This document shows positions 10,457 to 64,000 of a stretch of 64,000 nucleotides of DNA, one piece after another. The notes below the pieces were generated by a model. The model had not been told where the DNA came from and ran no database searches. It was given only the letters and a program-made list of their open reading frames with translations. A program made the position numbers and the translations under genes. The DNA is from Gammaproteobacteria bacterium. GTDB lineage: Bacteria; Pseudomonadota; Gammaproteobacteria; GCA-002705445; GCA-002716945. Each line of letters begins with the position of its first letter. The first letter of the stretch is position 1. The stretch covers positions 30,932-94,931 of the forward strand of contig CBFIBF010000001.1 in the NCBI GenBank assembly GCA_965660795.1, read 5' to 3'.

Positions 10457-10792
10457 ATGAGAAAGCTAATATTGTTCATGTTTTTAGTGTTTATAGCTGC
10501 ACCTTCGATTTCTTATTCTGATGATATTGCAGAGGGCAAAAAGCTTACTTTTGATCGAAAGAAAGGTAACTGCTTGGCGTGTCACATGATTGATGATGGT
10601 GAATTAGCAGGAAACAATGGACCTCCCTTGCTAGCTATGAAAGCAAGATTCCCTGACAGAGAACTTCTTTTTCAACAAATTTGGGATCCTACTCAAACTA
10701 ACCCTTATTCTTTTATGCCTCCATTTGGTAAACATGGAGCGCTGACAAAAAATGAGATTAATAAGATAATTGATTATTTATACACACTTTAG
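10457..10792 (+). CDS. soxX: Sulfur oxidation monoheme cytochrome c SoxX
   Basis: 111 aa with a signal peptide and a single CLACH heme motif, first gene of a soxXYZA run. Confidence 0.75.
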   Translation: MRKLILFMFLVFIAAPSISYSDDIAEGKKLTFDRKKGNCLACHMIDDGELAGNNGPPLLAMKARFPDRELLFQQIWDPTQTNPYSFMPPFGKHGALTKNEINKIIDYLYTL

Positions 10793-10800
10793 GAAAACAT

Positions 10801-11262
10801 ATGAATAGAAGAAAATTTATAAAAAATAGCATACTGTTTGCTGGTACATTAGCGACTGTACCAACTTTAATTACTGCTAATAAAGCATACGCTTCTTGGC
10901 CGAAAAAGTCTTTTGATATCAAAGACCTTAATGACTCTGTAAGTAGTGTTTATGGTCACAATAACTTACAAGAATCATCTAAGGTAAAACTCAAGGCGCC
11001 GGAAATTGCAGAAAACGGAGCTATAGTGCCTATCAACGTATCAACAACTCTTGATAATGTTGAATCAATAATGATATTTGTTGAAAATAATCCACAACCA
11101 TTATCAAGTGGTTATCAGCTAACATCTCTAGCTGAGCCTGCAATAGGTACACGTTTGAAAATGGGAAAGACATCAAATGTAATGGCTGCTGTAAAGAGCG
11201 GTGACAAAGTGTATACATCTACACAAGAAGTCAAAGTAACCATTGGAGGCTGCGGAGGTTAA
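10801..11262 (+). CDS. soxY: Sulfur carrier protein SoxY
   Basis: Tat signal (RRKFIKNSILFAGTLA) and the C-terminal GGCGG swinging-arm motif. Confidence 0.92.
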   Translation: MNRRKFIKNSILFAGTLATVPTLITANKAYASWPKKSFDIKDLNDSVSSVYGHNNLQESSKVKLKAPEIAENGAIVPINVSTTLDNVESIMIFVENNPQPLSSGYQLTSLAEPAIGTRLKMGKTSNVMAAVKSGDKVYTSTQEVKVTIGGCGG

Positions 11263-11264
11263 TT

Positions 11265-11573
11265 ATGAGCACAATAAAAATGAGACCCAAAGAATCAAAT
11301 GGTGTTGTAACAGTCAAAGCTCTTATTAAACACCCCATGGAAACTGGGCAAAGAAAAGATAAAAAAACAGGCAATCTGATTCCAGCTCATTTCATTCAAG
11401 AGGTGCATGGTAAAGCTAATGGCAAGGAAGTAATAAAAATATACTGGGGTCCAGCTGTATCAAAAAATCCTTATCTAACATTTAAGTACAAAGGCAGCAA
11501 AGGTGATGAAATAGAATTGTCTTGGGTTGATAATCAAGGTAATCGTGACTCAGCCGTAGGAAAAGTTAAGTAA
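11265..11573 (+). CDS. soxZ: SoxZ
   Basis: 102 aa immediately after soxY; a SoxZ-like beta-sandwich sequence (IKALIKHPMETG). Confidence 0.85.
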   Translation: MSTIKMRPKESNGVVTVKALIKHPMETGQRKDKKTGNLIPAHFIQEVHGKANGKEVIKIYWGPAVSKNPYLTFKYKGSKGDEIELSWVDNQGNRDSAVGKVK

Positions 11574-12401
11574 ATGTTTAAAAAGCTTTTACTCCTTATC
11601 TTACTAACTCCATCATTATCAACTATGGCTAGTCCTGAAAGTGATTATGATGAATTTGTAAGTTACTTTGAAAATCGTTTTCCTGAAACACCATTCGAAG
11701 ATTATAAAAATGGTGTCTATTCAATAGATAAATCTGCAAGAGAACAATGGGAATCTATGGAAGAATTTCCTCCATACGAACTTAATATAGACAGAGGGGA
11801 AGAGCTTTTTAATATACCTTTTAAAAATGGTAATACATATGCATCATGTTTCGACAATGAGGGTAAAGGAATTAGACAAAATTATCCTTACTTCAACACA
11901 GATAAGAATAAAGTTGTCACACTCGAAGGCGCTATCAATGAATGCAGAGTAAAAAATGGTGAAAAACCACTCAGTTATTATAAAGGAAAGGAATTAGCTC
12001 ATGTTTCAGCCTATATGGCTTACACTTCTCGTGGTAACAAATTTAATGTTGAAGTGCCTAATACTGCAGAGGCATTAGAAGCATATGAAGATGGAAAGAG
12101 ATTGTATTTTACTAAAAAAGGACAGCTTAATTTTTCATGTGCAGATTGTCATGTCTATCAAACAGGTACAAAACTAAGAGCTGATATTCCAAGTCCAGCG
12201 ATAGGTCATCCTACACACTTTCCAGTTTACAGATCTGGAATGGGAAGACTGGTTACATTGCATGAGAGGTTTGCAGGATGCCTAAACCGTATTAGAGCTA
12301 AAAGTTTTAAAGCTGGTAGTGATGAACTAAATAATCTTGAGTATTTTACTACGTTTATGAGTAACGGCCTTGAAGTTAATGGACCAGGCTCTAGAAAATA
12401 A
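11574..12401 (+). CDS. soxA: Sox cytochrome c SoxA (monoheme type)
   Basis: 275 aa with a signal peptide and one CADCH heme motif. Follows soxZ directly (the soxZ TAA stop abuts the ATG at 11574). Confidence 0.8.
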   Translation: MFKKLLLLILLTPSLSTMASPESDYDEFVSYFENRFPETPFEDYKNGVYSIDKSAREQWESMEEFPPYELNIDRGEELFNIPFKNGNTYASCFDNEGKGIRQNYPYFNTDKNKVVTLEGAINECRVKNGEKPLSYYKGKELAHVSAYMAYTSRGNKFNVEVPNTAEALEAYEDGKRLYFTKKGQLNFSCADCHVYQTGTKLRADIPSPAIGHPTHFPVYRSGMGRLVTLHERFAGCLNRIRAKSFKAGSDELNNLEYFTTFMSNGLEVNGPGSRK

Positions 12402-13809: not shown

Positions 13810-13811
13810 TT

Positions 13812-13884: not shown

Positions 13885-13892
13885 CGAATATA

Positions 13893-34826: not shown

Positions 34827-35123
34827 ATGGTTTATCATACAATAAATGAGAACTTTATGAAAAAAATATCGGATTTCATACCAAAGAAAGTAATTGATAA
34901 AAAAGAGAATATAGAAAGTTTAAATCTAATTCTTAATGATTCAATCGAAACCAACTTAAAGAATAAAATACGTGTGATCAACTACAGCGAAACATGCATA
35001 ACAATAGAGTGTGATGATACCTCAATTGCCAGTATCATGCGATTTGAAAAGGACAAATACTTGGATATATTTAACGAGAATGATTTAAGTAATATTAAAG
35101 AACTTAAAGTAAGAGTCAGATAG
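34827..35123 (+). CDS. DUF721 / DciA-like small protein
   Basis: 98 aa with an [31 protein letters not shown] pattern resembling DUF721. It lies between lpxC and secA on the opposite strand, which is where Pseudomonas-type genomes carry a DUF721 gene. Confidence 0.45.
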
Positions 35124-36024
35124 ACTCAGTCGTATGAGCAAATAATATTGGTGATTTTACTTCATCCTCTATTATCACTTCTTCCCATGCATTTTGATTA
35201 TTCACAAGTTCTCTAAGTAAAAGATTGTTCAAGTGATGGCCTGATTTAAAAGCTGAGAAAGAACCAATAATACTATGACCAAGAAGGTATAAATCACCAA
35301 TAGCATCAAGTATTTTGTGCTTAACAAATTCGTCCTTATATCTTAAGCCATCTTCATTGACGATTTTATAATCATCTATAACAATTGCATTATTAACGCT
35401 TCCGCCTAGCGCTAGATTATTTTTTCTTAACTTTTCAATATCCTTTGCAAAACCAAAAGTTCTTGCTCTACTAACTTGGCTAAGGTAAGAAACAGAAGAG
35501 AAATCAATAGTAGATGTTTGTGTATCTTTAGGAAATAAAGGGTGATTAAAATCAATGGTAAATTCTACTTTGAACCCATCAAATGGCTCAATTTTTGCCC
35601 ATTTATCAGCTTGCTTTACCTCAATGTCTTTTATAATTTTAATGAACTTCTTCGGATGATTTTGCTCACAAATGCCAGCAGATTGACATAAGAAAACAAA
35701 AGGTCTTGAGCTTCCATCCATGATAGGAACTTCGGGTCCATCTAGTTCAACACGTGCGTTATCAATACCTAAGCCTGCAAATGCTGATAATAAATGTTCG
35801 ACAGTAGAGACAGATTCTTCACCATTTGAAATAGTTGTCGACAATCTAGTGTCATATACGTTTTTCAAAGATGCAGATATTGGTGTGTTTGATAAATCCT
35901 TTCTAATAAAAACAATACCCTCGTCGGATTTCCCAGGACATATTTTTAAGTTTATTTTTTTACCAGTGTGAAGACCAACGCCTGTTGCAGTAATAGTGCT
36001 GGATAAAGTCCTTTGTTTTAACAT
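35116..36024 (-). CDS. lpxC: UDP-3-O-acyl-N-acetylglucosamine deacetylase
   Basis: 302 aa with N-terminal [17 protein letters not shown] and the HTTE C-terminal motif. Confidence 0.95.
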
Positions 36025-50135: not shown

Positions 50136-51261
50136 CTTGTTGTCTTAGAAATGCTGGTATGTCTATTGAAGTTTGATCTTCTTGTCCAGATAGATCTACA
50201 TGCTCAATATTATTATTGGAGTTTTGAAAGCTTTTAACACTGTTCATGTTTTCTTTAGGTTGTTCTTCTAAAGAAGGTTCAGTAGTTACAACATCTGCTA
50301 CATTGTTTTGTACAAAACCTGTTGCAATTATAGTAACTCTCAAGTCTCCTATATTATCATCTTCTTTAATACAGCCGGTGATAATCTTTGCGTCTTCATG
50401 TGCAATTTCTCTGATTTTATTTCCAATAACTTCAAATTCATCTGTAGTCAAATCTGAACCAGATGTAATGTTAACAAGAACGCCGCTTGCGCCTTTAAGG
50501 CTTATATTATCAAGTAAAGGGCTGCTAAGTGCTGTAGTAACAGCTTCCTCAGCTCTATTTTCACCAGATGAAACACCAGAGCCCATCATTGCCTTGCCCA
50601 TTCCTGACATTACGGTTTTAACATCTGCAAAATCAACATTCATAAAACCTCTAATAGTTATAATTTCTGTTATCCCTTTGACAGCACCTCTTAGCACGTC
50701 ATTAGCGTTTTCAAATGATGAAAATATGGATTCTCCTCCGCCATATACCTCTTTAAGTTTTGAATTTGGTATTACAATGAGTGAATCCACCCATTGTTCT
50801 AGATTATCTATGCCTTCTTGTGCATTTGCCATTCTCTCTGGACCCTCAAAATCGAATGGTTTTGTCACTACAGCAACTGTCAGTATACCTAAATCCCTAG
50901 CAATCTGGGCAATAACTGGTGCTGCGCCTGTGCCTGTTCCACCACCCATACCAGCGGCTATGAAAAGCATATCTGCTCCTTCAATTGACTCTTTTAGAGT
51001 TTCGCTTGCTTCAAGTGCTGCTTGTCTGCCTTTTTCAGGATCTGCGCCAGCTCCTAATCCTTTAGTTATTTCAGAGCCTATCTGAACCGTGACTGCGCCG
51101 TCTATATCCCTTAGGGCTTGTACATCAGTATTTGCAATTAAAAAATCTGCCCCATGAATTTGAGACTTAAGCATCGACATAATAGCGTTACCACCGCCAC
51201 CGCCTACACCAATAACTTTGATAACCGCATTTTGATTATAATTATTTACTATTTCAAACAT
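50128..51261 (-). CDS. ftsZ: Cell division GTPase FtsZ
   Basis: 377 aa with the GGGTGTG tubulin signature and the conserved C-terminal peptide DIPAFLRQQAD. Confidence 0.97.
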   Translation of the reverse strand: MFEIVNNYNQNAVIKVIGVGGGGGNAIMSMLKSQIHGADFLIANTDVQALRDIDGAVTVQIGSEITKGLGAGADPEKGRQAALEASETLKESIEGADMLFIAAGMGGGTGTGAAPVIAQIARDLGILTVAVVTKPFDFEGPERMANAQEGIDNLEQWVDSLIVIPNSKLKEVYGGGESIFSSFENANDVLRGAVKGITEIITIRGFMNVDFADVKTVMSGMGKAMMGSGVSSGENRAEEAVTTALSSPLLDNISLKGASGVLVNITSGSDLTTDEFEVIGNKIREIAHEDAKIITGCIKEDDNIGDLRVTIIATGFVQNNVADVVTTEPSLEEQPKENMNSVKSFQNSNNNIEHVDLSGQEDQTSIDIPAFLRQQAD

Positions 51262-51270
51262 GGTGTCCTC

Positions 51271-51540
51271 CTATTGATCCATATTCATGATTAAAATTCT
51301 TTCTTTATTTGGCAGCTGCATATTAAGAGCCTTACCTAGACTATTTTTCTGTAAAACTTTATCTGTAATGTCAGCTTTATCTTTTAGCAACTGTCGATAT
51401 GATTCAGATAAATAATAATGTTTCTTTTCGTTTTCAGATATTTCAATGTTCAAGATTCTATTTTGATATTTTATAAAAATCACTCCAAAAGCTGAAATGG
51501 TTATAAGTAAAATTAAAACAAAAGAAGCTGTCAAATTCAT
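51271..51540 (-). CDS. ftsL: Cell division protein FtsL
   Basis: 89 aa with a single transmembrane helix plus coiled coil, sited between rsmH and the downstream division genes. Confidence 0.75.
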   Translation of the reverse strand: MNLTASFVLILLITISAFGVIFIKYQNRILNIEISENEKKHYYLSESYRQLLKDKADITDKVLQKNSLGKALNMQLPNKERILIMNMDQ

Positions 51541-53144: not shown

Positions 53145-53287
53145 TTATCAACACTATATGACTTATTTTTAACATATGCAAGTAGTAATAGAGATAAACT
53201 AATGAAAATGTAGATAAATGAAGATTAAAATAACTAAAATATTAATTTTTATATATATTTCAGTTACTTATCGTATAATATTAATTA

Positions 53288-53616
53288 GAGAGAGTTAATC
53301 TATAAGCCGGGTTCTGTCGTGTACAGCTATTTATCTTGAATTATTGTCACCAATAATCTCATTAGCAGCAACCATGTGATTATATTGGGATGAATCACAA
53401 ATTTGCCTTGCTCCAAGTGGGGTTTACTTATGCCTACTTTGTTACCTCAGTAGCGGTAGGCTCTTACCCTACCTTTTCACCCTTACCTTTAAACAGGCGG
53501 TTATTTTCTGCAGCACTTTCCAAAACTCACGTTTTCCAGGTGTTACCTGGCACTTTTTCCCTGGAGCCCGGACTTTCCTCTATGTAATACATAGCAGCTG
53601 TATGATTAACTCTCGT
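53288..53616 (-). ncRNA. rnpB: RNase P RNA (bacterial type A)
   Basis: On the minus strand: GAGGAAAGUCCGGGCUCCAGGGAAAAAGUGCCAGGUAACACCUGG (P4 and the universally conserved region), and near the 3' end CGACAGAACCCGGCUUAUAG matching E. coli M1 RNA. The 5' segment 53614..53604 (GAGAGUUAAUC) pairs with the 3' segment 53300..53290 to form P1. It is locally GC-richer than its surroundings. The ends are approximate (about 10 nt). Confidence 0.88.
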
Positions 53617-55443: not shown

Positions 55444-56052
55444 ATGTCGACTAAATTACAAAAAGATGATATTTCTATTGCCATTTTAGCTGGCGGAAAA
55501 TCATCAAGAATGGGTGGTAATAATAAAGGTCTCATGAAGCTAAATAATAAGCTTGTTTTGTCAAGGCTAATATCTATTGCATGTAATTACTCATCTGATG
55601 TTTTTGTTATTGCAAATGATCTACTAGATGAATATAGAAAAATTCATCAAAACGTTTATTCAGATATTCTTGAAGATTATCAAGGGCCATTATCTGGTAT
55701 ATACTCTGCGCTTTCGTATTGTAAAAATCAATATTTAATCACCTTGCCATGTGATGGACCATTCCTCTCTAAAGAATATTTTGAAACTTTGACTGAATTT
55801 AATAATGAAAAAAAGATCTTTGTAACAAAGACAGGTGATAGGCTTCAGCCTGTGCATGCAAGAATTGATACATCGCTAAAAAATAATTTAAAACTCTTCT
55901 TACAATCTGGAGAGAGAAAAATAGATAAGTGGTATACTTCATGCGGATATGAAGTGGTTTTATTTGATGAAAGTGATGAAATGTTTATAAATCTAAATAC
56001 AAAAATAGATATTGAAGAAAATATTGAATTAATTAAAAAACTATATGGATAA
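55444..56052 (+). CDS. MobA-like nucleotidyltransferase (molybdenum cofactor guanylyltransferase family)
   Basis: 202 aa with AILAGGKSSRMGGNNKGL and PCDGPFL, matching MobA motifs. First gene of the C1-cofactor cluster. Confidence 0.7.
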   Translation: MSTKLQKDDISIAILAGGKSSRMGGNNKGLMKLNNKLVLSRLISIACNYSSDVFVIANDLLDEYRKIHQNVYSDILEDYQGPLSGIYSALSYCKNQYLITLPCDGPFLSKEYFETLTEFNNEKKIFVTKTGDRLQPVHARIDTSLKNNLKLFLQSGERKIDKWYTSCGYEVVLFDESDEMFINLNTKIDIEENIELIKKLYG

Positions 56053-56575
56053 ACATAGAATAGCATGGTGTATTACTGGTTCGGGTCATTACCTAAAAGA
56101 ATCAATTGATCTTATGCTTACATTAAATCATGTAGATTTATATTTGAGTAAAGCAGGTGAAGAGGTACTCAAATGGTATGACTATGATCTTGATATTTTC
56201 AAGAAAAAGAAGATTAAAATATTCAAAGATATAACTGCCAGCTCGGCACCAGTTAGTTTATTATATGAGTCTGTTTATAAACTAGTTGTTATCTCGCCTG
56301 CTACCTCAAATACAATAGCTTTCATGGCACAGGGTATGTCTAATAACCTTGTGACAAATATGTTTGCACAAGCTGGTAAATGTGGAATTAAAACACTAGT
56401 TTTTGCATGCGATACTGAACCAGTTGTAATTACACAGGCACCTAAAAAATTAGTTACTTTATACCCAAGAGAAATAGATTTAAAAAATTTTAGAGCTTTG
56501 AAAAAATTTAAAAATGTATCCGTTGTTGATAACGTAGCATCTTTGAAAAAAGCTTTAAGTAAATTAATTAAATGA
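56045..56575 (+). CDS. Flavoprotein-family protein (CoaC/EpiD/AfpA fold); candidate dihydromethanopterin reductase (DmrX/AfpA-like)
   Basis: 176 aa with AWCITGSG and ISPATSNTIA, the two signature motifs of the FMN-binding flavoprotein family. Overlaps its neighbours (8-nt and 4-nt overlaps). Confidence 0.55.
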   Translation: MDKHRIAWCITGSGHYLKESIDLMLTLNHVDLYLSKAGEEVLKWYDYDLDIFKKKKIKIFKDITASSAPVSLLYESVYKLVVISPATSNTIAFMAQGMSNNLVTNMFAQAGKCGIKTLVFACDTEPVVITQAPKKLVTLYPREIDLKNFRALKKFKNVSVVDNVASLKKALSKLIK

Positions 56576-57954
56576 AAAATATTTTATTCATTACAGGTAA
56601 GTTGGCTGAAAAAGGCCTTAAGACAGTCCTTGATGGTATTGAAGAAAAAAAATTTAATTACAAAATAAAAAATCTTAATGTGAATGTAGCGGCTCTTTTA
56701 ACAACAGACATGATTGAGAGACGTATTGGTGATGTTAGTCAGTTTGATGAGATTATAATTCCTGGAAGAGTGCGTGGGGATATAGAACGTCTTGAAAAGA
56801 TTGTTAAAAAGAAGGTAACCAGAGGTCCTGATGAATTAAAAGACTTACCAATAATGTTCGGAGCAAAAGCTGTCAAATATGATCTTTCAAAATTTGAAAC
56901 AGCAATATTTGGGGAAATTACAGATGCATTAAATATGACTATTGAAGCTGTAATAGAAAGAGCAGAATATTTTAGATCAGAAGGAGCTGACGTAATAGAC
57001 ATTGGTTGTTTGCCAAATAAAGAATTCCCTCATCTTGAAGAATTAGTCCAGGAACTGAAAAATAGAAATTTCTATGTCAGTATTGATTCTCATAATACAG
57101 ATGAATTGATTCGTGGTTCTAAAGCTGGTGCAGATTATCTCTTAAGTATTAAAAGTGAGACATATCACATACTTGAAAACCTTGACTCATATCCTGTTCT
57201 TATCCCATCAGATAATAATTTACCTGAATTTTATAACCTAATTGATAGAGCTATAAAGGATAATTTAACTTTTATAGCGGATCCAATTCTGGACCCTGTT
57301 TCATATGGGTTTACTAAAAGTTTAATGAGGTATGTAAATTTGAGAGAAAAATATCCTGACATTCACATAATGATTGGTATAGGAAATATCACTGAACTTA
57401 CTCATGCTGATACTACGGGAATAAATATGATAATGCTAGGTATCGTAGAAGAACTCAAATTAAACCACATATTAACAACCCAGGTCAGTAGACATTGTTC
57501 GACGGTCATAAGAGAAACTGACCTTGCAAGGAGAATAATTCATGCGGCTTCTGAAAATAATATTACACCAAAGCATATAAATGATGGATTAATGGCAAAT
57601 CATGATCATAAAGATTATCCTTTATGCTCAGATGAACTAAGTGAAATGCAAACAAAAATCAAAGACAAGAACTATCGTATTTATGTCAATGATGATGGGA
57701 TACATTTATTTAATAAAAATATATACAAAGTTTTTAGTGACCCTTTTAAGTTTTATGAGTATCTTGATTTGAATGATGATACAGGGCATGCATTTTATCT
57801 TGGTGTTGAATTAGCAAGGGCACAAATCGCATTTCAATTAAAGAAGAATTATCATCAAGATGAGGAACTTACTTGGGGGTGTTTAGTTGATAAAGAAATT
57901 GATGATATGATAAGTGAAAAGAAATTAGGTCCGACATTCAAAAAAATAAAATGA
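56572..57954 (+). CDS. Dihydropteroate-synthase-like pterin-binding protein (H4MPT-pathway type) with a C-terminal extension
   Basis: 460 aa carrying Pterin_bind-like motifs (GADVIDIGCLPN, SIDSHNTDELIRGSKAGADYL, MIGIGNITELTHADTTGIN), followed by about 170 residues of unassigned sequence. Confidence 0.6.
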   Translation: MKNILFITGKLAEKGLKTVLDGIEEKKFNYKIKNLNVNVAALLTTDMIERRIGDVSQFDEIIIPGRVRGDIERLEKIVKKKVTRGPDELKDLPIMFGAKAVKYDLSKFETAIFGEITDALNMTIEAVIERAEYFRSEGADVIDIGCLPNKEFPHLEELVQELKNRNFYVSIDSHNTDELIRGSKAGADYLLSIKSETYHILENLDSYPVLIPSDNNLPEFYNLIDRAIKDNLTFIADPILDPVSYGFTKSLMRYVNLREKYPDIHIMIGIGNITELTHADTTGINMIMLGIVEELKLNHILTTQVSRHCSTVIRETDLARRIIHAASENNITPKHINDGLMANHDHKDYPLCSDELSEMQTKIKDKNYRIYVNDDGIHLFNKNIYKVFSDPFKFYEYLDLNDDTGHAFYLGVELARAQIAFQLKKNYHQDEELTWGCLVDKEIDDMISEKKLGPTFKKIK

Positions 57955-58523
57955 TTCATGAAGTAATTGTAACTACCTTTAATAAAAAGAAAGAGGTTCA
58001 CATAGCGCCAATGGGTGTAAAGTTTGTTGATTTTGATAACAAGCAATGTGTTCAAATTTCTCCATTCAAACCGTCTCATACATTAAATAATCTTATTGAT
58101 ACAAAAGTGGCTACAATTAATTATGTTGATAACGTGAAAGTGTTTGCTGGCATTGTCACAGAGGAAAAAAAGTCATGGGATTTAGATCAGGTTTCAGATA
58201 GTTGTGTGCCGCATTTGGATATTACAAATACATATATGAACGTTAGTGTTTGTCAGGAAAATGATGATGATGTAAGGCCAAATATTATATGTAATATAGA
58301 AAATACTAAAATACTAAGGCCTTTTATGGGCTTTAATAGAGCTCAGTTTTCTGTGATTGAACTAGCAGTGCTTTCTACACGATTAGGAAGAATAGAGGAT
58401 GATAAAGTAAAAAGAGAGTATGAGTATCTAAAAATAGGGATAGATAAGACTGCAGGTGAAGACGAAAGAGCAGCATGGAAATGGATAGAAAACAAAATTA
58501 TGAAATATTTTAATAATGATTAA
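57951..58523 (+). CDS. DUF447-like (flavin-reductase-like split-barrel) H4MPT-pathway-associated protein
   Basis: 190 aa with N-terminal EVIVTT...HIAPMGV, typical of the FMN-binding split-barrel / DUF447 family found in H4MPT gene clusters. Confidence 0.45.
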   Translation: MIHEVIVTTFNKKKEVHIAPMGVKFVDFDNKQCVQISPFKPSHTLNNLIDTKVATINYVDNVKVFAGIVTEEKKSWDLDQVSDSCVPHLDITNTYMNVSVCQENDDDVRPNIICNIENTKILRPFMGFNRAQFSVIELAVLSTRLGRIEDDKVKREYEYLKIGIDKTAGEDERAAWKWIENKIMKYFNND

Positions 58524-59220
58524 GATTCTTGGTAGTATCAAAGATGTTAGCGAGGCGAAGGTTATCTCGAAATACGATTTTGATATTATTGATATAAAAA
58601 ATGTCATGGATGGTGCACTTGGATATGTGGGAGATGACGTTGTAAGCAACATCTCTAAAATGTTTAAAAATAAAACTTTAAGTGTTACTGCAGGAAATGA
58701 TTTACATCCAAACTCACAAAAGCAGATATCCAGATTGATGTTGATGAATAAGCTTGGGGTTAAATATATTAAAATAGGAGTTTATGGTGTGGATAACATC
58801 AATGAACATAAAGAATTTTTAAAATCAGTTTCAGGATTATCAATCAAAGTTGTGGGTGTTATGTTTGCGGAGTATATTACAAATGAAAGTCAGATAGATT
58901 CATTTTGTGAATTAAATTATCACGGACTGATGATTGATACTGAGAACAAAAATGCTGGGTCTTCCATAGATATTCTTCCAGATCATCTTATTGAGTATTT
59001 CACTGAAAAATGTAGGCAACATAATAAGCTGTGTGGAATTTCAGGTTCCTTGTCATCAAAAAATTTAGAAAAGGTTTTTTCTTTTAGTCCTAATTTTATT
59101 GGATTAAGAGGTGCTATTTGTTCTCAATCTAAAAGAGAAACAATAGATTCTCTAAACTGTGAGAAAGTTTTAGAATATATTAAGAGAGTTAATCAGAAAA
59201 TGCATCTAAAAGTGGTTTAA
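58516..59220 (+). CDS. MfnB-like (5-formylfuran-3-yl)methyl phosphate synthase (DUF556 family)
   Basis: 234 aa with N-terminus MIKILGSIKDVSEAKVISKYDFDIIDIKNVMDGALGYV, similar to MfnB (MxLLVSP..EA..A...GADIIDVKNP.EGSLGA). Confidence 0.55.
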   Translation: MIKILGSIKDVSEAKVISKYDFDIIDIKNVMDGALGYVGDDVVSNISKMFKNKTLSVTAGNDLHPNSQKQISRLMLMNKLGVKYIKIGVYGVDNINEHKEFLKSVSGLSIKVVGVMFAEYITNESQIDSFCELNYHGLMIDTENKNAGSSIDILPDHLIEYFTEKCRQHNKLCGISGSLSSKNLEKVFSFSPNFIGLRGAICSQSKRETIDSLNCEKVLEYIKRVNQKMHLKVV

Positions 59221-60547
59221 CTTTAGAAATTGTCTCATTATACTCACTGCGAATGTCAGAATCATAGACAATTCCTCCTCCGCCCCAGAAATATAAATTA
59301 TTATCAATAGATAACATAGATCTGATTGATATATTTAAATCAGTTTTTTCATCAAAACTAATATAACCTATAGATCCACAGTATATCGATCTTTCATCAG
59401 GCTCAAGTTCCTCAATAATTTCCATCGCACGAAGTTTCGGAGCACCTGTAATTGAACCTCCTGGGAAAGCATCTCTTATCAGATTATAAATATTTGAACT
59501 TTCATCAATTTCTCCACTTATTGTACTCACAAGATGATGGACGTTAGCAAATGTTTCAATTTCAAATAATTTATCAACTTTTACACTACCCTTTTTACAG
59601 TTAATGCTCAAATCATTCCTAAGTAAATCCACAATCATCAAGTTTTCAGCCATATCTTTTTCAGATGATTTAAGATCATCGATGTTATTTTTGTTAATGA
59701 TTGGATTATCAGATATTGGTCTTGTTCCTTTAATGGGTTTAGTCTCAATGATATTATTTTTTATTGATAAAAATCTCTCTGGAGAGAATGATAAAATTTT
59801 CCCGTTATGCGAGTTAAAATAAACTGAATAGGGGGATGAAAAGGTTTTATTAAGCTGTTGATAAAGATTATATTCATCTCCCTCATATGCGAGTGAAAAT
59901 CTTTGAGCTAAATTAACCTGATAACAATCCCCTGCTTTAATATATTCTAGTATTTTCATGAGCTTCATCTCATATAAAGCATAATTCATATTTGATTCAC
60001 AGCTTGAAGTTATTTTAAAGGAATCTTTACTGTTTAATTTTTTATTTTCTGGAGAGTAATTGCTTATGCTTTTAATTAATGTATTAATTTCATAATAAAC
60101 GATAAAAGCTTTTTTTTTATGATAATCATAAATTACTGCCCAATCATAAATCCCGAAAGCAAAAGTAGGAAAGTTCAAGCTTTTATGTAAGCTTTTAATT
60201 TGATGTAGTTTTTTTCCATAATCATATGCAATATGTCCAATAGCACCTCCACAAAATGGAATATCATCAGCAGACTCACATTTATAATTACTCATTATCT
60301 CTCTAAGTAAATCAAATGGACATGTATCAATCTCCTTTGTAAAATTTTCATCCTCTATTAATAAAACAGAATCGTCTTTGAAAATAATTTTTTTTATGGG
60401 ATTCGATGTAATTATATCAAATCTTTGATCAGGATATTTTTCATAATTACTGTTCAAGAAAACAGCCCAGTCATTCTCTTTTATAAACTCAAAAATTTTA
60501 TGAGATGGTATATTAAAATCAAGTTCAATAAATTTATAATTCATCAC
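59189..60547 (-). CDS. Chorismate-utilising enzyme, aminodeoxychorismate synthase component I-like (PabB-like)
   Basis: 452 aa with C-terminal chorismate-binding motifs (FPGGSITGAPKLRAMEIIEELE, RSIYCGSIGY, GGGGIVYDSDIRSEYNET). Confidence 0.7.
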   Translation of the reverse strand: MMNYKFIELDFNIPSHKIFEFIKENDWAVFLNSNYEKYPDQRFDIITSNPIKKIIFKDDSVLLIEDENFTKEIDTCPFDLLREIMSNYKCESADDIPFCGGAIGHIAYDYGKKLHQIKSLHKSLNFPTFAFGIYDWAVIYDYHKKKAFIVYYEINTLIKSISNYSPENKKLNSKDSFKITSSCESNMNYALYEMKLMKILEYIKAGDCYQVNLAQRFSLAYEGDEYNLYQQLNKTFSSPYSVYFNSHNGKILSFSPERFLSIKNNIIETKPIKGTRPISDNPIINKNNIDDLKSSEKDMAENLMIVDLLRNDLSINCKKGSVKVDKLFEIETFANVHHLVSTISGEIDESSNIYNLIRDAFPGGSITGAPKLRAMEIIEELEPDERSIYCGSIGYISFDEKTDLNISIRSMLSIDNNLYFWGGGGIVYDSDIRSEYNETISKVKPLLDAFSD

Positions 60548-61583
60548 TTATCCTATTCAAAACAAAAGCAGGAAAAAGGTGTGACAGTGATTCTCCGCCA
60601 TTAATAGAAGTCTTTAGAATATGGTTAATATTCTTAAATTTATATCCGTTAGCAGTGCAGATATCTGAAATAATATTTACTCCTAATCCCAAACCAATTA
60701 CCTTAAAACTAGAATCTAAAAAATATTTATCAACTAAATATGATAAGTTTTTATTAATATTCTGCATTTGTCTGTAATGTAATTTATTGCACAAATAGTT
60801 CAAAAGTTTCTTTTTACTTTTATCATAGTCAAAACCAAATGATCTTGATACTCTTTTATATGAATTTATTACAGAATAATTTAAGCCATCTGCAGATTTA
60901 GAATAAATATCCTTATGGCATAATTTTTTTAATATAATATTTACGTCCGCCATTGTTGAAAAATTTTCTGGAATTATACTATACTCTCTATTTTTATAAT
61001 TAATATTATTCATGAGAGAGAATAATGGAGTCCTTGAACATCCAGTATATAAGAGTTCTCTATTTTGAATGCCACTGAGATCAGATGATCTTTGATTTAA
61101 AATCTTTCCATCCTTCAATAGGATAAAGTCACATGTAGTAGACCCTAAATCTATAGCAATTGCATTATCATAATAGTTAGATAAATAAAGGGCCGATGCA
61201 AACCAGTTATAAGATCCTATATAATCAGTATTAAATAGATTAGATTTTTTAATATCTATGAATCCATCTTTTGTGAACACGCTAGAGGTAATTTTTGTTT
61301 TTTTGATTTTATCTATTATATATTTAACACCCTTTTTTCTACTTTCAAAACAATCGCACATCTCAGCAGACATAGTAAAATAATTTTTGATTTGAGAATT
61401 TTTATTACTAAATTGATTTGTAACTCTGGTTATGATTTCATCTAGAGCATCATGTTCGCTCCAAAAGTCAAAATCAATAATGTCATACCAAATAATATTA
61501 TTTGATTCTGGTTCAGCACAGTATTTAATATGTGCGCCGCCAATATCCCATCCTATTTTTGTTATATAAGGTTTAATTGACAT
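60534..61583 (-). CDS. Hydantoinase/oxoprolinase-like H4MPT-linked C1-pathway protein (MfnF-type)
   Basis: 349 aa with an N-terminal GWDIGGAHIK actin-like-fold ATPase motif (the hydantoinase_A N-terminus) and a second ASKHG-like motif (AIDLGSTTCD). Confidence 0.5.
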   Translation of the reverse strand: MSIKPYITKIGWDIGGAHIKYCAEPESNNIIWYDIIDFDFWSEHDALDEIITRVTNQFSNKNSQIKNYFTMSAEMCDCFESRKKGVKYIIDKIKKTKITSSVFTKDGFIDIKKSNLFNTDYIGSYNWFASALYLSNYYDNAIAIDLGSTTCDFILLKDGKILNQRSSDLSGIQNRELLYTGCSRTPLFSLMNNINYKNREYSIIPENFSTMADVNIILKKLCHKDIYSKSADGLNYSVINSYKRVSRSFGFDYDKSKKKLLNYLCNKLHYRQMQNINKNLSYLVDKYFLDSSFKVIGLGLGVNIISDICTANGYKFKNINHILKTSINGGESLSHLFPAFVLNRISDEL

Positions 61584-62476
61584 GTTCTACCTGCTATATC
61601 ACATATGGTATCTTCAATATAATCAAGACAACTAGTATTCTTACACTTCTGTAACATTGACATGGATGTTGTATATCTTGGATTTACTTCGATAAGAAAA
61701 AACTCTCCCTTGTATTCAATAAAGTCTATACCCACAAAACCTCTAAGATTAGGAAGGATTGATATGACGTCATCAATAAATTTAAATATTAAATTTTTAT
61801 CAGTTGGATATAAATTGACTAGTATGGATTTAACTTGAATTCTATCCTTAGACACAGTCATATTATGTTTATTAATTGATAAAACTCTATAATTATTCTC
61901 AGATACATGAAGATTTACACTATGTGAATTTCCTGGAATATACTTTTCAGTAATTTTATTTAAATCTTCATATTTACCTTTTTTTACAAAATAAGTATCA
62001 GAACAACCACATCCGAATCTATCTTTTGTAATTAATAAAGTATTCTTTACATCTGAGTCATAAGTATCAGGATTAAGTATATTATTTTCAGTACAAATTT
62101 TCTTTAGCCTGATCTTATCAGTAGCAATTAATATCGTTCTTAAATCTGATAAATACAAGTTTTCTATATTGGGCGATAGCTTTTTTATATAATTATATGA
62201 TATGAAATCATTCTCAGGACATATGGGTATAAAATAATCATATTGGTTTATGAATTCTGCGTCATATATGAGTTGCAAATTATTTTGATTAACAATAATA
62301 GCTTCTTTTCTGTTGGCATATTTATGTCGGTAATCACAAAAGAAGCTTATTTGATATTTAGTTGTGTCAATAAGAGACCTTAGAATTATATTTGCTTCTG
62401 TGAGAAGATGATGGTCAAGTTTATTTTCAATCAACCCGCCGCCTGTAATATACTCAAATATAAGAATTCTTTTCAT
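61562..62476 (-). CDS. ATP-grasp ligase (MptN/MfnD-type)
   Basis: 304 aa with an ATP-grasp C-terminal motif (FFLIEVNPRYTTSM) and the small size typical of RimK-like cofactor ligases. Confidence 0.55.
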   Translation of the reverse strand: MKRILIFEYITGGGLIENKLDHHLLTEANIILRSLIDTTKYQISFFCDYRHKYANRKEAIIVNQNNLQLIYDAEFINQYDYFIPICPENDFISYNYIKKLSPNIENLYLSDLRTILIATDKIRLKKICTENNILNPDTYDSDVKNTLLITKDRFGCGCSDTYFVKKGKYEDLNKITEKYIPGNSHSVNLHVSENNYRVLSINKHNMTVSKDRIQVKSILVNLYPTDKNLIFKFIDDVISILPNLRGFVGIDFIEYKGEFFLIEVNPRYTTSMSMLQKCKNTSCLDYIEDTICDIAGRTCQLNLI

Positions 62477-62477
62477 T

Positions 62478-63155
62478 ATGAATATTATACCTGCAATTGA
62501 TATAAAAGGCGGAATGGTTGTAAGAGCTATGGGAGGGAATCGAAAATATTATCAACCGGTTCACATCAGCTTAAATCAATCATCAGACCCTATTGTTTTT
62601 ACAAGAAAGATTATTCAATTGTATCATCCGTCAGTAATATATCTTGCTGATCTAGATTCGCTAAATAATGATGGAGATAATACAAATATCATTATTGAAC
62701 TATGTAATTTATTCAAAAATATAATATTTTGGGTAGATGTAGGAAACAGGAAAATAAGTTCATTAGAAAAAAATAATATAATTCATATAATGTGCAGCGA
62801 ATGCTTAAAAAAAATAAAAAATTTTAATTATATTTATAAAAATCATATTTACTCATATGACTATAAGGACGGTATAATTGGCTTTAAATATTTTCAAAAG
62901 CTTGATTCTAAATATAAAAATAAAATTATATTAATGAATATGTCAGATATAGGTACCAGCAAAGGTCCAGATTACAAGCACATAAAAAGAACCCGTAGAA
63001 GCTCAAAAAAAGAATATTATGTTGCTGGAGGAATTAGCTCGGTTTTTGATATTATCAGGCTGCGCAATATGAAAGTTAATGGAGTGATTGTTTCATCTAT
63101 TCTATTTAATACAAAAACCAATAAATACTTAATAAAGAAAAGAGCCAGTAGTTAA
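62478..63155 (+). CDS. HisA/HisF-family (beta/alpha)8 barrel protein (HisA-like, H4MPT-cluster type)
   Basis: 225 aa with N-terminus MNIIPAIDIKGGMVVR (HisA-like phosphate-binding start) and a C-terminal AGGISS glycine-rich phosphate-binding motif. Confidence 0.55.
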   Translation: MNIIPAIDIKGGMVVRAMGGNRKYYQPVHISLNQSSDPIVFTRKIIQLYHPSVIYLADLDSLNNDGDNTNIIIELCNLFKNIIFWVDVGNRKISSLEKNNIIHIMCSECLKKIKNFNYIYKNHIYSYDYKDGIIGFKYFQKLDSKYKNKIILMNMSDIGTSKGPDYKHIKRTRRSSKKEYYVAGGISSVFDIIRLRNMKVNGVIVSSILFNTKTNKYLIKKRASS

Positions 63156-63185
63156 CTGGCTCTAATATCATCATATCAAAAATGA

Positions 63186-63698
63186 TTATTTTTCGAACGG
63201 ATGCTCTGTAGCTTTCTTAGCAACTACGTCTTGAGCTTTTGGCTCACCGCTAACAGCATTTTTAATAGCCATTTTTGTTGCTTCAAAATTATAATCATAG
63301 ATACGTTTGTTATCATCAGCGTCCCAATGAATAAACACACCTACACAGATGAAAATATCATCAGCCTCATCAGCTGGAATTGTTCCATCTTCTACACATT
63401 CAGTAACAGCTCTTGCAACTGCTGCTTGCGCTGGACCAAACATTTGAACTGCTTGCTTAGCGCCTTTGATTGTAACTTTGTTGAACATAGCTGTGCTAGG
63501 TTTACATGGTAAGTTAGGTGAAACTACAGCTAATAAAGATGTAAAACCATCTTTGTTATTACATAATGTGTTACAAAATGCATCTTCAACTGCAGAACCA
63601 CGTGGTCCCATTAATAAGTCGATATGTGAAATTTCGTTATCCCCACCTTCGGTTACAACAAGTGCTTCACCAACTAATACTTTGTCGACTACTGCCAT
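63186..63698 (-). CDS. fae: Formaldehyde-activating enzyme (5,6,7,8-tetrahydromethanopterin hydro-lyase)
   Basis: 170 aa that aligns along its whole length with methylotroph Fae from memory: VGEALV...[11 protein letters not shown]...AFCN...[23 protein letters not shown]....[14 protein letters not shown]...[10 protein letters not shown]....VGVFIHW.A.D...I..YN.EATK..I..AV.GEPKA. Confidence 0.88.
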
Positions 63699-63723
63699 TT
63701 TTATCTCCTATTTTTTTTGTTTA

Positions 63724-64000
63724 TTAATAAACGGACACTTCACTACTGGACTCTATACCAATGAAATAATCATATATCATCATCGATACAACCAATAGAT
63801 CAGCTGTTGTCCCTGGATTCACCCGAGCCATTTTAAAATGTTTATCAAGAGATATTAGATTTTTACCCCATGACTCATATCGAGTATCCCCGTCTAGTAT
63901 TTTTATCAAATCAGACGCCTCATTACTAGTCTTTTTTGCTATTTTATTGCCATATTTTCGTCTTAAATGAGAATCTGTGTACTTTTCTAGAGTTTTAAGG
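63724..64000 (-). CDS. CitG/MdcB-like triphosphoribosyl-dephospho-CoA synthase family protein, C-terminal part only. The gene starts beyond the window end; the TTG at 63909 used by the track is probably internal.
   Basis: The frame is open from the window edge: ...DTRYESWGKNLISLDKHFKMARVNPGTTADLLVVSMMI, matching the CitG C-terminal NLSPGGSADLLA region. Confidence 0.5.
   Translation of the reverse strand, partial: LKTLEKYTDSHLRRKYGNKIAKKTSNEASDLIKILDGDTRYESWGKNLISLDKHFKMARVNPGTTADLLVVSMMIYDYFIGIESSSEVSVY

What the first reader, a model, noticed from the sequence alone, without database searches (positions are those of the whole stretch)
55444..64000. Archaeal-type C1-cofactor (tetrahydromethanopterin plus methanofuran) biosynthesis cluster with fae in a sulfur-oxidiser core-genome context
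Eleven contiguous genes on both strands have overlapping or near-zero intergenic spacing. They are a MobA-like NTP transferase, an AfpA/DmrX-type flavoprotein, a DHPS-like pterin-binding enzyme, a DUF447-like protein, an MfnB-like enzyme, a PabB-like enzyme, a hydantoinase-like MfnF-type protein, an ATP-grasp ligase, a HisA-like protein, Fae and a CitG-like protein. This is the family set that established work on methylotrophs and methanogens associates with H4MPT and methanofuran biosynthesis and H4MPT-dependent formaldehyde activation. The other ~55 kb of the window is a thiosulfate-oxidiser housekeeping backbone (soxXYZA, YeeE, TusA) with Pseudomonas-like synteny and very low GC. A full H4MPT/MFR cofactor module in such an organism suggests methylotrophy or formaldehyde detoxification coupled to lithotrophy. 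The module combines H4MPT and MFR genes, its own pabB, and a MobA-type gene at its head, in an arrangement I do not recognise from the canonical Methylobacterium cluster. The cluster runs off the window edge.
Basis: partly seen in the sequence, partly recalled or inferred. Interest (0 to 1): 0.75.

Follow-up and report, generated by a model that had tools for sequence, protein, structure and literature searches.

The report
Known bacterial formaldehyde-oxidation cofactor gene island
This is the ordinary bacterial gene island for making the cofactors tetrahydromethanopterin and methylofuran and using them to oxidise formaldehyde; it sits in a tiny-genome marine sulfur-oxidising bacterium, next to a methanethiol oxidase gene just outside the window, and this combination has already been published for the likely lineage.

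Summary
Contigs of the same species (97-99.7% nt identity) continue past 64000 with orf5/myfB, mch, orfY/myfA, mtdB, mptG and fhcBADC.

The arrangement is not unusual. The same gene order, including pabB, occurs in Thiodiazotropha, Thiobacillus, Methylococcaceae and other Proteobacteria. Tight spacing is window-wide (median gap 0 bp), and GC and codon usage match the flanks, so the island is native. MobA is an ordinary MobA at the island's edge, and only this lineage has it there.

New context: directly after fhcC lie tlpA, sco1/mauG and mtoX (methanethiol oxidase, 713 bits against a cutoff of 650). Methanethiol yields formaldehyde plus sulfide, which would explain H4MPT and Sox in one cell.

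The organism is most probably GTDB order GCA-002705445 (about 1.1-1.2 Mb, low GC). Francis et al. 2021 and Priest et al. 2022 already reported the complete H4MPT pathway, methanethiol oxidase and sulfur oxidation in that order.

Verdict: real, correctly read, already known. Interest is low.

The parts
55444..56052 (+). mobA, molybdenum cofactor guanylyltransferase. It is a boundary gene and probably not part of the C1 pathway.
   Evidence: TIGR02665 scores 155.9 bits against a cutoff of 151.85. It overlaps the next gene by 8 bp. Adjacency to the island is seen only in the organism's own lineage, L001-L010, together with dus and a methyltransferase.
56045..56575 (+). afpA/dmrB-type flavoprotein, a probable dihydromethanopterin reductase (last step of H4MPT synthesis)
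   Evidence: Pfam Flavoprotein, 70 bits. The only PDB match is 3WIS/4MWG, 'putative dihydromethanopterin reductase (AfpA)', E = 8e-48, 165.5 bits.
56572..57954 (+). DUF6513 plus dihydropteroate-synthase-like pterin-binding protein (orf19 type), assigned to H4MPT biosynthesis
   Evidence: DUF6513 scores 88 bits (cutoff 23.9). TIGR00284 scores 167.7 bits, below its cutoff of 256.65. Its position next to DUF447 and afp is conserved in other Proteobacteria.
57951..58523 (+). DUF447 protein (orf20 type), H4MPT-linked, biochemical role unknown
   Evidence: DUF447_N 64.8 bits and DUF447_C 48.4 bits. The only PDB match is 3B5M, an uncharacterised protein.
58516..59220 (+). mfnB (orf22 type), 4-HFC-P synthase, which makes the furan ring of methylofuran
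   Evidence: Pfam 4HFCP_synth, 137 bits. The alignment to MJ1099 (4RC1) keeps the DIIDxKN, YIKxG and DTxxK motifs.
59189..60547 (-). pabB, aminodeoxychorismate synthase component I; supplies p-aminobenzoate, the substrate of beta-RFAP synthase
   Evidence: TIGR00553 scores 344.8 bits against a cutoff of 328.4. A pabB homologue lies within 10 kb of fae in 39 of 86 loci.
60534..61583 (-). orf9/MfnF-like hydantoinase-fold protein, assigned to methylofuran biosynthesis
   Evidence: TIGR03123 ('H4MPT-linked C1 transfer pathway protein') scores 204.9 bits, cutoff 244.1. MfnF model NF040623 scores 153.8 bits, cutoff 520. The role follows PMC8141765.
61562..62476 (-). orf1/MfnD-like ATP-grasp ligase (tyramine or tyrosine to glutamate)
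   Evidence: ATP-grasp_3 scores 85 bits. Its best NCBIfam hit is MfnD model NF040722 at 68 bits, far below the cutoff of 400.
62478..63155 (+). orf17, HisA/HisF-related protein; required for methylofuran synthesis in M. extorquens, step unknown
   Evidence: TIGR00734 scores 100.4 bits and His_biosynth 76 bits. The role comes from PMC8141765.
63186..63698 (-). fae, formaldehyde-activating enzyme
   Evidence: TIGR03126 scores 235.6 bits against a cutoff of 118. PDB 1Y5Y (M. extorquens Fae) matches at 227 bits. The exact protein is listed in 1932 blocks of the assembly collection. An AGGAG motif lies 7 nt before the ATG.
63141..63163 (-). terminator-like hairpin 23 nt after the fae stop codon, overlapping the 3' end of orf17
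   Evidence: A 9-bp stem with 5 G-C pairs followed by a T-run. This is a consensus match only.
63730..64000 (-). C-terminal 89 codons of the orf21/CitG-like gene (MfnE role proposed in the literature); cut by the window edge
   Evidence: The translation contains NPGTTADL. The full 296-aa gene with Pfam CitG is present in L003.
10457..12401 (+). soxX-soxY-soxZ-soxA; context only. The proposed sink for the sulfide released by methanethiol oxidase.
   Evidence: Pfam SoxY, SoxZ, SoxA/TsdA and cytochrome c. The functional link is inferred, not shown.

Best explanation
The region is one half of a native island of about 18 kb and 20 genes (mobA excluded). The island encodes the bacterial formaldehyde-oxidation pathway that depends on tetrahydromethanopterin and methylofuran, together with the synthesis of both cofactors.

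Genes inside the window:
- Pterin branch: pabB, the DHPS-like gene, DUF447 and dmrB/afpA.
- Furan branch: mfnB, orf9/mfnF-like, orf1/mfnD-like, orf17 and orf21/citG-like.
- fae.

Genes just outside, in the same species: orf5/myfB, mch, orfY/myfA, mtdB and mptG, then the divergently transcribed fhcBADC.

Proposed mechanism. Fae condenses formaldehyde with H4MPT. MtdB and Mch oxidise the product to formyl-H4MPT. The Fhc complex passes the formyl group to its bound methylofuran and releases formate. These steps are inferred from family membership and established biochemistry; nothing was measured here.

Immediately after fhcC lie tlpA, sco1/mauG and mtoX. The likeliest formaldehyde source is therefore periplasmic methanethiol oxidase (CH3SH + O2 + H2O -> HCHO + H2S + H2O2). 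The formaldehyde would go to the H4MPT pathway and the sulfide to Sox or other sulfur-oxidation enzymes. That use would be dissimilatory, for energy.

The host is an uncultured marine gammaproteobacterium with about 31% GC and a genome of about 1.2 Mb. It is most probably GTDB order GCA-002705445.
For: - Family assignments for the window genes.
- Beyond the window in the same species: L003 is 97% and L123 98.3% nt-identical to the window tail. Mch scores 408 bits (cutoff 229), FhcD 431 (293), FhcA 706 (393). MtdB has Pfam Mpt_N. MptG's best hits are the beta-RFAP synthase models.
- Gene order is conserved with Thiodiazotropha, Thiobacillus, Methylotetracoccus and beta- and alphaproteobacterial MAGs.
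- The island is native. GC is 0.298 against 0.317, GC3 is 0.214 against 0.225, and RSCU correlates at r = 0.975. The full synteny is kept in relatives whose proteins are only 34-89% identical (L009, L010).
- mtoX scores 713-716 bits on NF052453 (cutoff 650), with sco1/mauG and tlpA in the same order as in Methylophaga thiooxydans.
- tlpA and sco1/mauG follow fhcC in about 25 metagenome loci; mtoX lies next to them in the five long enough to reach it.
- Literature for the probable lineage: genomes of 1.1 Mb with complete H4MPT pathways, and SBP56 detected in metaproteomes; MTO plus H4MPT plus dsrAB/soeABC in genus GCA-2705445; a low-GC order recovered from the same Great Barrier Reef hybrid assemblies that hold the exact Fae.
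Against: - No expression, enzyme or cofactor data were produced here.
- Several assignments are below the curated cutoffs: FhcB 161/328, MptG 99.6/113.5, TIGR00284 168/257, TIGR03123 205/244. They rest on best hit plus synteny.
- mtoX lies outside the window, and its coupling to the island is inferred from adjacency.
- Placement in order GCA-002705445 is circumstantial. No marker phylogeny was run.
Confidence: 0.85

Rival explanations
1. The island serves general formaldehyde detoxification, or oxidation of formaldehyde from other C1 sources such as methanol via XoxF, methylated amines or demethylations. On this view methanethiol oxidase is an unrelated neighbour.
For: The H4MPT pathway is source-agnostic. 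Francis et al. list the order among dissimilatory methylotrophs without fixing a substrate. Gene adjacency is tight everywhere in this genome, so neighbourhood alone is weak evidence.
Against: tlpA and sco1/mauG follow fhcC in about 25 loci from genera whose synonymous sites are saturated, with mtoX alongside wherever the contig extends far enough. MtoX produces formaldehyde directly. SBP56 from this order is detected in metaproteomes.
Confidence: 0.3
2. The cluster is a recently acquired genomic island, transferred horizontally from a methylotroph or an archaeon.
For: The pathway is patchily distributed among Proteobacteria (PMC5020050). Fae is 100% identical between genera that differ by about 25% in DNA.
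Against: GC, GC3 and codon usage match the flanks. The whole island plus its flanks (mobA, dus, methyltransferase) is syntenic in relatives as distant as 34-89% protein identity. Synonymous sites are saturated for nearly all island genes. Archaeal equivalog models all score far below their cutoffs.
Confidence: 0.04
3. The MobA-type gene at the head belongs to the pathway. It would either support a real molybdopterin-dependent formylmethanofuran dehydrogenase (FhcB as FwdB) or nucleotidylate a cofactor intermediate.
For: There is an 8-bp overlap with dmrB/afpA, and the adjacency is kept in L009 and L010. FhcB here keeps the N-terminal CPFCxLxCDD cysteine motif that M. extorquens FhcB has lost.
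Against: FwdB's catalytic Cys118-His119 aligns to Lys-Phe here and is absent from all 38 proteobacterial FhcB homologues compared. The cysteine motif is common to beta/gamma FhcB proteins, so it is not special. MobA passes the MobA equivalog cutoff. Outside this lineage no island has a mobA neighbour. The unrelated dus and methyltransferase genes are equally conserved as neighbours. soeABC, reported in the probable genus, belongs to the molybdopterin oxidoreductase family (my knowledge) and would need MobA anyway.
Confidence: 0.04

Closest known systems
Proteobacterial 'archaeal-like' H4MPT/methylofuran gene island (Methylorubrum extorquens, Methylobacillus flagellatus, Burkholderia; work of Chistoserdova, Kalyuzhnaya, Vorholt and Hemmann)
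   Same: The gene set is the same: fae, mtdB, mch, fhcABCD, mptG, afpA/dmrB, the DHPS-like orf19, DUF447 orf20, orf21, orf22/mfnB, orf9, orf1, orf17, orfY/myfA and orf5/myfB. The order matches beta/gamma-proteobacterial islands (roles).
   Different: The island is extremely compact, with overlapping genes and no spacers. It uses an AfpA/DmrB-type reductase rather than the DmrA of Methylobacterium, and it has an MfnD-like orf1, which Methylobacterium lacks. FhcB keeps the N-terminal cysteine motif that M. extorquens FhcB lost. The host is a 1.2-Mb oligotroph, not a classical methylotroph.
GTDB order GCA-002705445 (SILVA 'Thiotrichaceae') pelagic Gammaproteobacteria, as described by Francis et al. 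2021 and Priest et al. 2022
   Same: Genome size is about 1.1-1.2 Mb and GC is low. The group is marine and planktonic. It has a complete H4MPT pathway, SBP56/methanethiol oxidase and sulfur-oxidation genes. The exact Fae occurs in the Great Barrier Reef hybrid assemblies from which this order was recovered.
   Different: Membership of the window's organism was not proven by marker phylogeny. Those papers report gene presence; in the text read, they do not describe the physical layout of the island or its direct linkage to mtoX-sco1/mauG-tlpA.
mto clusters of Methylophaga thiooxydans and Hyphomicrobium sp. VS (methanethiol oxidase MtoX with SCO1/MauG and TlpA-like maturation genes)
   Same: The order is mtoX, then the sco1/mauG fusion, then tlpA-like. 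MtoX is above the NCBIfam equivalog cutoff, and both MtoX and Sco1/MauG begin with hydrophobic, signal-peptide-like N-termini, seen by eye in the translations.
   Different: Here the cluster abuts fhcC of the H4MPT island. It lacks the pdo, sqrB and sulP genes that follow in Methylophaga. It lies outside the window.
Archaeal methanofuran and H4MPT biosynthesis with Fwd/Fmd formylmethanofuran dehydrogenase (methanogens)
   Same: The families are homologous: MfnB, MfnD, MfnF, MptN-like, AfpA, MptG, and the FwdA/B/C and Ftr homologues.
   Different: All archaeal equivalog models score far below their cutoffs. FhcB lacks the catalytic Cys-His of FwdB. MyfA- and MyfB-like ligases, which add glutamates to methylofuran in methylotrophs, indicate polyglutamylated methylofuran. 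The pathway direction is oxidative.

Membership tests
Bacterial H4MPT/methylofuran-dependent formaldehyde oxidation island | A true formaldehyde-activating enzyme (Fae) | tested here: met
   TIGR03126 scores 235.6 bits against a cutoff of 118. Pfam Fae scores 217.7 bits. PDB 1Y5Y matches at 227 bits.
Bacterial H4MPT/methylofuran-dependent formaldehyde oxidation island | C1-transfer enzymes MtdB, Mch and FhcABCD present in the same genome | tested here: met
   Tested in same-species contigs L003 and L123. Mch scores 408.3 bits (cutoff 228.8), FhcD 431.5 (292.6) and FhcA 706.2 (392.75). MtdB has Pfam Mpt_N and FhcC has GXGXG. FhcB scores 160.8, below its cutoff of 327.8, but is in the syntenic position.
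Bacterial H4MPT/methylofuran-dependent formaldehyde oxidation island | H4MPT biosynthesis genes: beta-RFAP synthase MptG, DHPS-like protein, DUF447 and a dihydromethanopterin reductase | tested here: met
   The reductase matches PDB 3WIS at E = 8e-48. DUF447 and DUF6513 are above their Pfam cutoffs. MptG's best hits are the beta-RFAP synthase models, but it scores 99.6 against a subfamily cutoff of 113.5. TIGR00284 scores 167.7, below 256.65. MptG and the DHPS-like gene are therefore met by best hit plus synteny, not by curated cutoff.
Bacterial H4MPT/methylofuran-dependent formaldehyde oxidation island | Methylofuran biosynthesis genes: mfnB/orf22, orf21, orf9, orf1, orf17, myfA and myfB | tested here: met
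   MfnB scores 137 bits on its Pfam model and keeps the conserved motifs. orf9 best matches TIGR03123. orf17 best matches TIGR00734. The RimK/MptN-like 287-aa and ATP-grasp 358-aa genes sit in the canonical positions. Roles are taken from PMC8141765.
Bacterial H4MPT/methylofuran-dependent formaldehyde oxidation island | Gene order shared with other proteobacterial islands | tested here: met
   The order fhcCDAB | mptG-mtdB-orfY-mch-orf5-orf21-fae | orf17 | orf1-orf9-pabB | mfnB-DUF447-DHPSl-afp recurs, wholly or in large part, in L015, L030, L034, L035, L051 and L063.
Bacterial H4MPT/methylofuran-dependent formaldehyde oxidation island | The cofactors dephospho-H4MPT and methylofuran are actually made, and formaldehyde is oxidised to formate | not testable with these tools
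   This needs LC-MS of cofactors and enzyme assays or labelling in cells or enrichments.
Archaeal methanofuran/H4MPT biosynthesis enzymes (equivalogs) | Scores at or above the curated cutoffs of the archaeal equivalog models | tested here: not met
   MfnB NF002575 scores 85.3 (cutoff 304). MfnF NF040623 scores 153.8 (520). MfnD NF040722 scores 68.2 (400). MptN NF040720 scores 182.5 (350). AfpA TIGR02699 scores 91.7 (192.45).
Formylmethanofuran dehydrogenase (Fwd/Fmd, a molybdo/tungstopterin enzyme) | Catalytic Cys118-His119 of FwdB and a pterin-capping FwdD domain | tested here: not met
   Cys-His aligns to Lys-Phe. The pair is absent from all 38 proteobacterial homologues aligned. No fwdD-like gene is called in the locus. 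The N-terminal Cys motif is retained.
MobA, molybdenum cofactor guanylyltransferase | Score at or above the TIGR02665 equivalog cutoff | tested here: met
   155.9 bits against a cutoff of 151.85, a narrow pass.
Methanethiol oxidase (MtoX) cluster; outside the window | An SBP56 protein at or above the MtoX equivalog cutoff, with SCO1/MauG and TlpA-like maturation genes | tested here: met
   NF052453 scores 713.0 bits (L123) and 716.1 bits (L091) against a cutoff of 650. A SCO1-SenC plus CCP_MauG fusion and a TlpA/ResA-like gene lie adjacent. The order matches Methylophaga.
GTDB order GCA-002705445 | Placement by genome-wide marker phylogeny or ANI | not tested
   The evidence is only circumstantial: genome size, low GC, source assemblies and gene repertoire. 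NCBI labels are 'Gammaproteobacteria bacterium' and once 'Ectothiorhodospiraceae bacterium'.

The most novel reading that the evidence does not exclude
The physically linked block mtoX-sco1/mauG-tlpA | fhcBADC | H4MPT and methylofuran genes, about 23 kb or roughly 2% of a 1.2-Mb genome, is conserved across an abundant pelagic order. Together with Sox, it would mark these cells as specialised methanethiol oxidisers that draw energy from both the methyl carbon and the sulfur of one substrate. They would then be a major, so far unquantified, sink for methanethiol derived from DMSP in the surface ocean. The unusually low synonymous divergence of fae and mtoX would reflect very high expression of exactly these two entry enzymes.
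Probability: 0.35. Interest if true: 0.5.

Novelty: already known. Interest (0 to 1): 0.2.

Why it matters
The pathway itself is textbook methylotroph biochemistry, and its presence in this probable lineage is published. The finding therefore adds no new kind of system. Its modest value is ecological. A lineage with one of the smallest free-living gammaproteobacterial genomes spends about 2% of its DNA on this pathway and keeps it fused to a methanethiol oxidase cluster. By contrast, streamlined OM43 methylotrophs lost the H4MPT genes. This supports the published idea that these cells oxidise methanethiol for energy, which bears on marine DMSP and sulfur-gas budgets.

Tried and rejected
1. Naming the organism. 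A SecA homologue search returned only unnamed marine relatives at 74-100% identity. Cluster-member names gave only class-level labels. Rfam found no rRNA in the window. The SUP05/Thioglobus idea found no support in the papers read. It was dropped in favour of order GCA-002705445, on literature and source-sample evidence only.
2. MobA plus FhcB as a true formylmethanofuran dehydrogenase. Rejected because the catalytic Cys-His is absent and the retained Cys motif is common to beta/gamma FhcB proteins.
3. Horizontal transfer of the island. Rejected on composition, codon usage and deep synteny.
4. Tight spacing as evidence of an operon. Rejected because the tightness is window-wide.
5. Promoter scan. 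Uninformative in this AT-rich DNA, with 46 sites found against 58.8 expected.
This was solved through a homologue search.
7. Kalyuzhnaya et al. 2005 could not be read, so the orf nomenclature follows and my own recollection.
8. The DHPS-like protein has no sequence relative in the PDB.

Full report
**Observation.** The last is an 89-codon C-terminal fragment on the minus strand at 63730-64000 with the CitG-type NPGTTADL motif. Pfam and NCBIfam scans give these hits:
- MobA: TIGR02665, 155.9 bits, cutoff 151.85.
- A Flavoprotein/AfpA-like protein.
- A DUF6513 plus dihydropteroate-synthase-like protein: TIGR00284, 167.7 bits.
- DUF447.
- 4-HFC-P synthase (MfnB): 137 bits.
- PabB: TIGR00553, 344.8 bits, cutoff 328.4.
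- A hydantoinase-fold 'H4MPT-linked C1 transfer' protein: TIGR03123, 204.9 bits.
- An ATP-grasp_3 ligase whose best hit is MfnD.
- A HisA/F-related protein: TIGR00734.
- Fae: TIGR03126, 235.6 bits, cutoff 118.

Comparison with solved structures agrees with these assignments. Fae matches M. extorquens Fae (1Y5Y, 227 bits). The flavoprotein matches only 3WIS/4MWG, 'putative dihydromethanopterin reductase (AfpA)' (E = 8e-48). MfnB aligns with MJ1099 and keeps the DIIDxKN, YIKxG and DTxxK motifs. The rest of the window is housekeeping plus soxXYZA, a YeeE/TsuA-like transporter and small cytochromes c.

**Is the cluster special within the window?** No.
- Gaps in the cluster are -32 to +30 bp. Outside it the median gap is 0 bp and 24 of 53 junctions overlap, and about 94% of the window is coding.
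- GC is 0.298 in the cluster and 0.317 outside. GC3 is 0.214 against 0.225. Codon usage correlates at r = 0.975.
- The island is therefore compositionally native.

**Beyond the window edge.** The exact Fae protein is listed in 1932 blocks of the assembly collection, including a 1,206,103-bp NCBI contig and Great Barrier Reef hybrid assemblies. L003, L006 and L002 are about 97% nt-identical to the window's last 11 kb. L123 is 99.7% identical to L003 and 98.3% identical to the window tail.

In these contigs the island continues as follows:
- the full orf21/CitG-like gene;
- a RimK/MptN-like ligase (MyfB/orf5 type);
- mch (408 bits, cutoff 229);
- a 358-aa ATP-grasp ligase (MyfA/orfY type);
- mtdB (Pfam Mpt_N);
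- mptG (best hits are the beta-RFAP synthase models, 99.6-117.9 bits, below cutoffs);
- then, divergently, fhcB (160.8 bits, below cutoff), fhcA (706 bits), fhcD (431 bits) and fhcC.

**Comparison with other genomes.** I searched 86 loci around Fae homologues from species-representative genomes with all island proteins. The order fhcCDAB | mptG-mtdB-orfY-mch-orf5-orf21-fae | orf17 | orf1-orf9-pabB | mfnB-DUF447-DHPS-like-afp recurs, wholly or in large part, in several groups. These are Candidatus Thiodiazotropha, Thiobacillus, Methylotetracoccus and beta- and alphaproteobacterial MAGs. A pabB homologue lies within 10 kb of fae in 39 of 86 loci.

The arrangement is therefore the ordinary beta/gamma-proteobacterial one, only compacted. 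Sulfur oxidisers carrying it are not rare.

MobA, dus and a 268-aa methyltransferase are neighbours only in the organism's own lineage (L001-L010). That includes distant members with 41-59% identity in those three proteins. MobA thus marks the island's boundary.

**Gene roles.** These follow the literature: orf22 = MfnB, orf21 = MfnE role, orf9 = MfnF role, orf1 = MfnD-like, orfY = MyfA and orf5 = MyfB. Orf17 is needed for methylofuran synthesis at an unknown step. Afp-type reductases are present in most Proteobacteria. All archaeal equivalog models score far below their cutoffs. This is the bacterial counterpart system, and the MyfA/MyfB homologues point to methylofuran rather than methanofuran.

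**Does MobA signal a real formylmethanofuran dehydrogenase?** In M. extorquens, FhcB has lost the Fe-S domain, and Cys118 of FwdB is replaced by Ser. Here FhcB (415 aa) keeps the N-terminal CPFCSLHCDD motif plus a fourth Cys, but Cys118-His119 aligns to Lys-Phe.

Across 38 proteobacterial FhcB homologues the Cys motif is common and the Cys-His pair is always missing. FhcB is therefore typical of beta/gamma Proteobacteria, and MobA is not explained by Fhc. Priest et al. report soeABC in the probable genus. SoeA belongs to the molybdopterin oxidoreductase family (my knowledge), so a MobA is needed anyway.

**The main new context.** A metagenome scan with FhcD showed what follows fhcC, in convergent orientation, in a sister genus (L091):
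- a TlpA/ResA-like thiol:disulfide oxidoreductase;
- a SCO1/SenC-MauG fusion;
- an SBP56 protein that scores 716.1 bits on NCBIfam NF052453 'methanethiol oxidase' (cutoff 650).

The tlpA and sco1/mauG genes follow fhcC in about 25 loci. mtoX is seen next to them in the five contigs that extend far enough. L123 shows the same three genes in the window's own species, with MtoX at 713 bits. The order mtoX, sco1/mauG, tlpA is that of the Methylophaga thiooxydans mto clusters.

Methanethiol oxidase produces formaldehyde and hydrogen sulfide, and hydrogen peroxide as well. Adjacency therefore offers a simple rationale for H4MPT and Sox in one small genome. That coupling is inferred, not shown.

**Organism and prior knowledge.** NCBI labels are only 'Gammaproteobacteria bacterium', and once 'Ectothiorhodospiraceae bacterium'. 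A SecA search found only unnamed marine relatives. The literature closes the gap:
- Francis et al. 2021 describe two species of the 'basal order GCA-002705445'. They have 1.1-Mb genomes and complete H4MPT pathways, no clear assimilation route, and SBP56 in metaproteomes.
- Priest et al. 2022 describe genus GCA-2705445 (SILVA Thiotrichaceae) with MTO, the complete H4MPT pathway, dsrAB and soeABC. [quoted passage not shown]
- The GBR-MGD preprint reports this order as low-GC. It was recovered only by Nanopore hybrid assembly, with 34 circular genomes. Those are the same assemblies that hold the exact Fae.

The window's 31% GC and the roughly 1.2-Mb contig fit this order. I rate the assignment at about 85%, but it was not tested by phylogeny.

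**Side observations.**
- Between the two genera, synonymous sites are saturated for nearly all island genes (pS about 0.6-0.8). The exceptions are fae (pS 0.385, 100% aa identity) and mtoX (pS 0.244, 97% aa identity). sco1/mauG, next to mtoX, is saturated. High expression with codon selection is the simplest reading. Localised recombination is not excluded.
- fae has an AGGAG motif 7 nt upstream of its start codon and a terminator-like hairpin 23 nt downstream of its stop.
- ftsZ sits between ftsL and ftsI rather than after ftsA, and this is conserved in relatives.

**Verdict.** The island is canonical and native, and for the probable lineage it is already published. The only addition here is the physical layout and the direct linkage to the mtoX cluster.

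Noticed in passing
L123:10778-14744 (same species, about 11 kb beyond window position 64000); also L091:7112-11258: The cluster tlpA-like, sco1/mauG fusion and mtoX (methanethiol oxidase; NF052453 scores 713-716 bits, cutoff 650) lies convergent with fhcC, directly abutting the H4MPT island. tlpA and sco1/mauG follow fhcC in about 25 metagenome loci; mtoX is seen in the five long enough to reach it.
   Followed up: yes
window 63186-63698 (fae); L123:13413-14744 (mtoX): Between two genera whose other genes have saturated synonymous sites (pS about 0.6-0.8), fae has pS 0.385 with 100% aa identity and mtoX has pS 0.244 with 97% aa identity. The neighbouring sco1/mauG is saturated. Either codon selection on very highly expressed genes or localised recombination could explain this; it is unresolved.
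   Followed up: partly
window 50128-51261 (-), with ftsL-like 51271-51540, ftsI 48414-49886, ftsA 36089-37333 and lpxC 35116-36024: ftsZ lies between ftsL and ftsI at the 5' end of the dcw cluster, instead of between ftsA and lpxC. The same order is seen in relatives L126 and L127, so it is a lineage trait and not a misassembly.
   Followed up: partly
window 49887-50127: A 242-bp stretch between ftsZ and ftsI has no ORF on the gene strand. The window's ftsI ORF is 490 aa, against 546 aa starting 74 bp after ftsZ in relative L126. The cause may be a frameshift, a sequence error or a different start; it was not resolved.
   Followed up: no
L003:3056-4303 (fhcB) and homologues in 38 loci: Beta/gamma-proteobacterial FhcB proteins generally keep the N-terminal CPFCxLxCDD cysteine motif of archaeal FwdB, while lacking its catalytic Cys-His. 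The structurally characterised M. extorquens FhcB has lost the whole Fe-S domain. Whether these FhcB proteins still bind an Fe-S cluster is unknown.
   Followed up: partly
L091:11304-15217: Upstream of mtoX in the sister genus lie four genes: a 502-aa protein with a hydrophobic, signal-peptide-like N-terminus (weak beta-barrel BamG-like hit), a 90-aa membrane-like ORF, a BenC/MmoC-like Fer2-FAD-NAD reductase (366 aa) and a GST/SspA-like protein (216 aa). They may be a further organosulfur or oxygenase module.
   Followed up: no
L001, L002, L004, L005, L006 (Great Barrier Reef '_pilon' contigs): Several island genes are split into fragments in these Nanopore-hybrid contigs, including the DHPS-like gene, orf9, pabB and fhcD. 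They are intact in the NCBI contigs L003 and L123 and in the window. These are most likely residual long-read indel errors, not pseudogenes.
   Followed up: partly
window 53287-53613 (-) and 13813-13885 (-): RNase P RNA (class A, 264.7 bits) lies between mraZ and the 268-aa methyltransferase. tRNA-Lys(UUU) overlaps the 5' end of the mechanically called ORF 12932-13906, so that ORF's real start must be further downstream.
   Followed up: no
window 20721-21349 (+): Two tandem small mono-haem cytochrome c genes (101 and 108 aa) have weak similarity to the periplasmic dihaem shuttle PdsA and to cytochrome c6. They could be electron acceptors for Sox or MtoX-linked chemistry.
   Followed up: no
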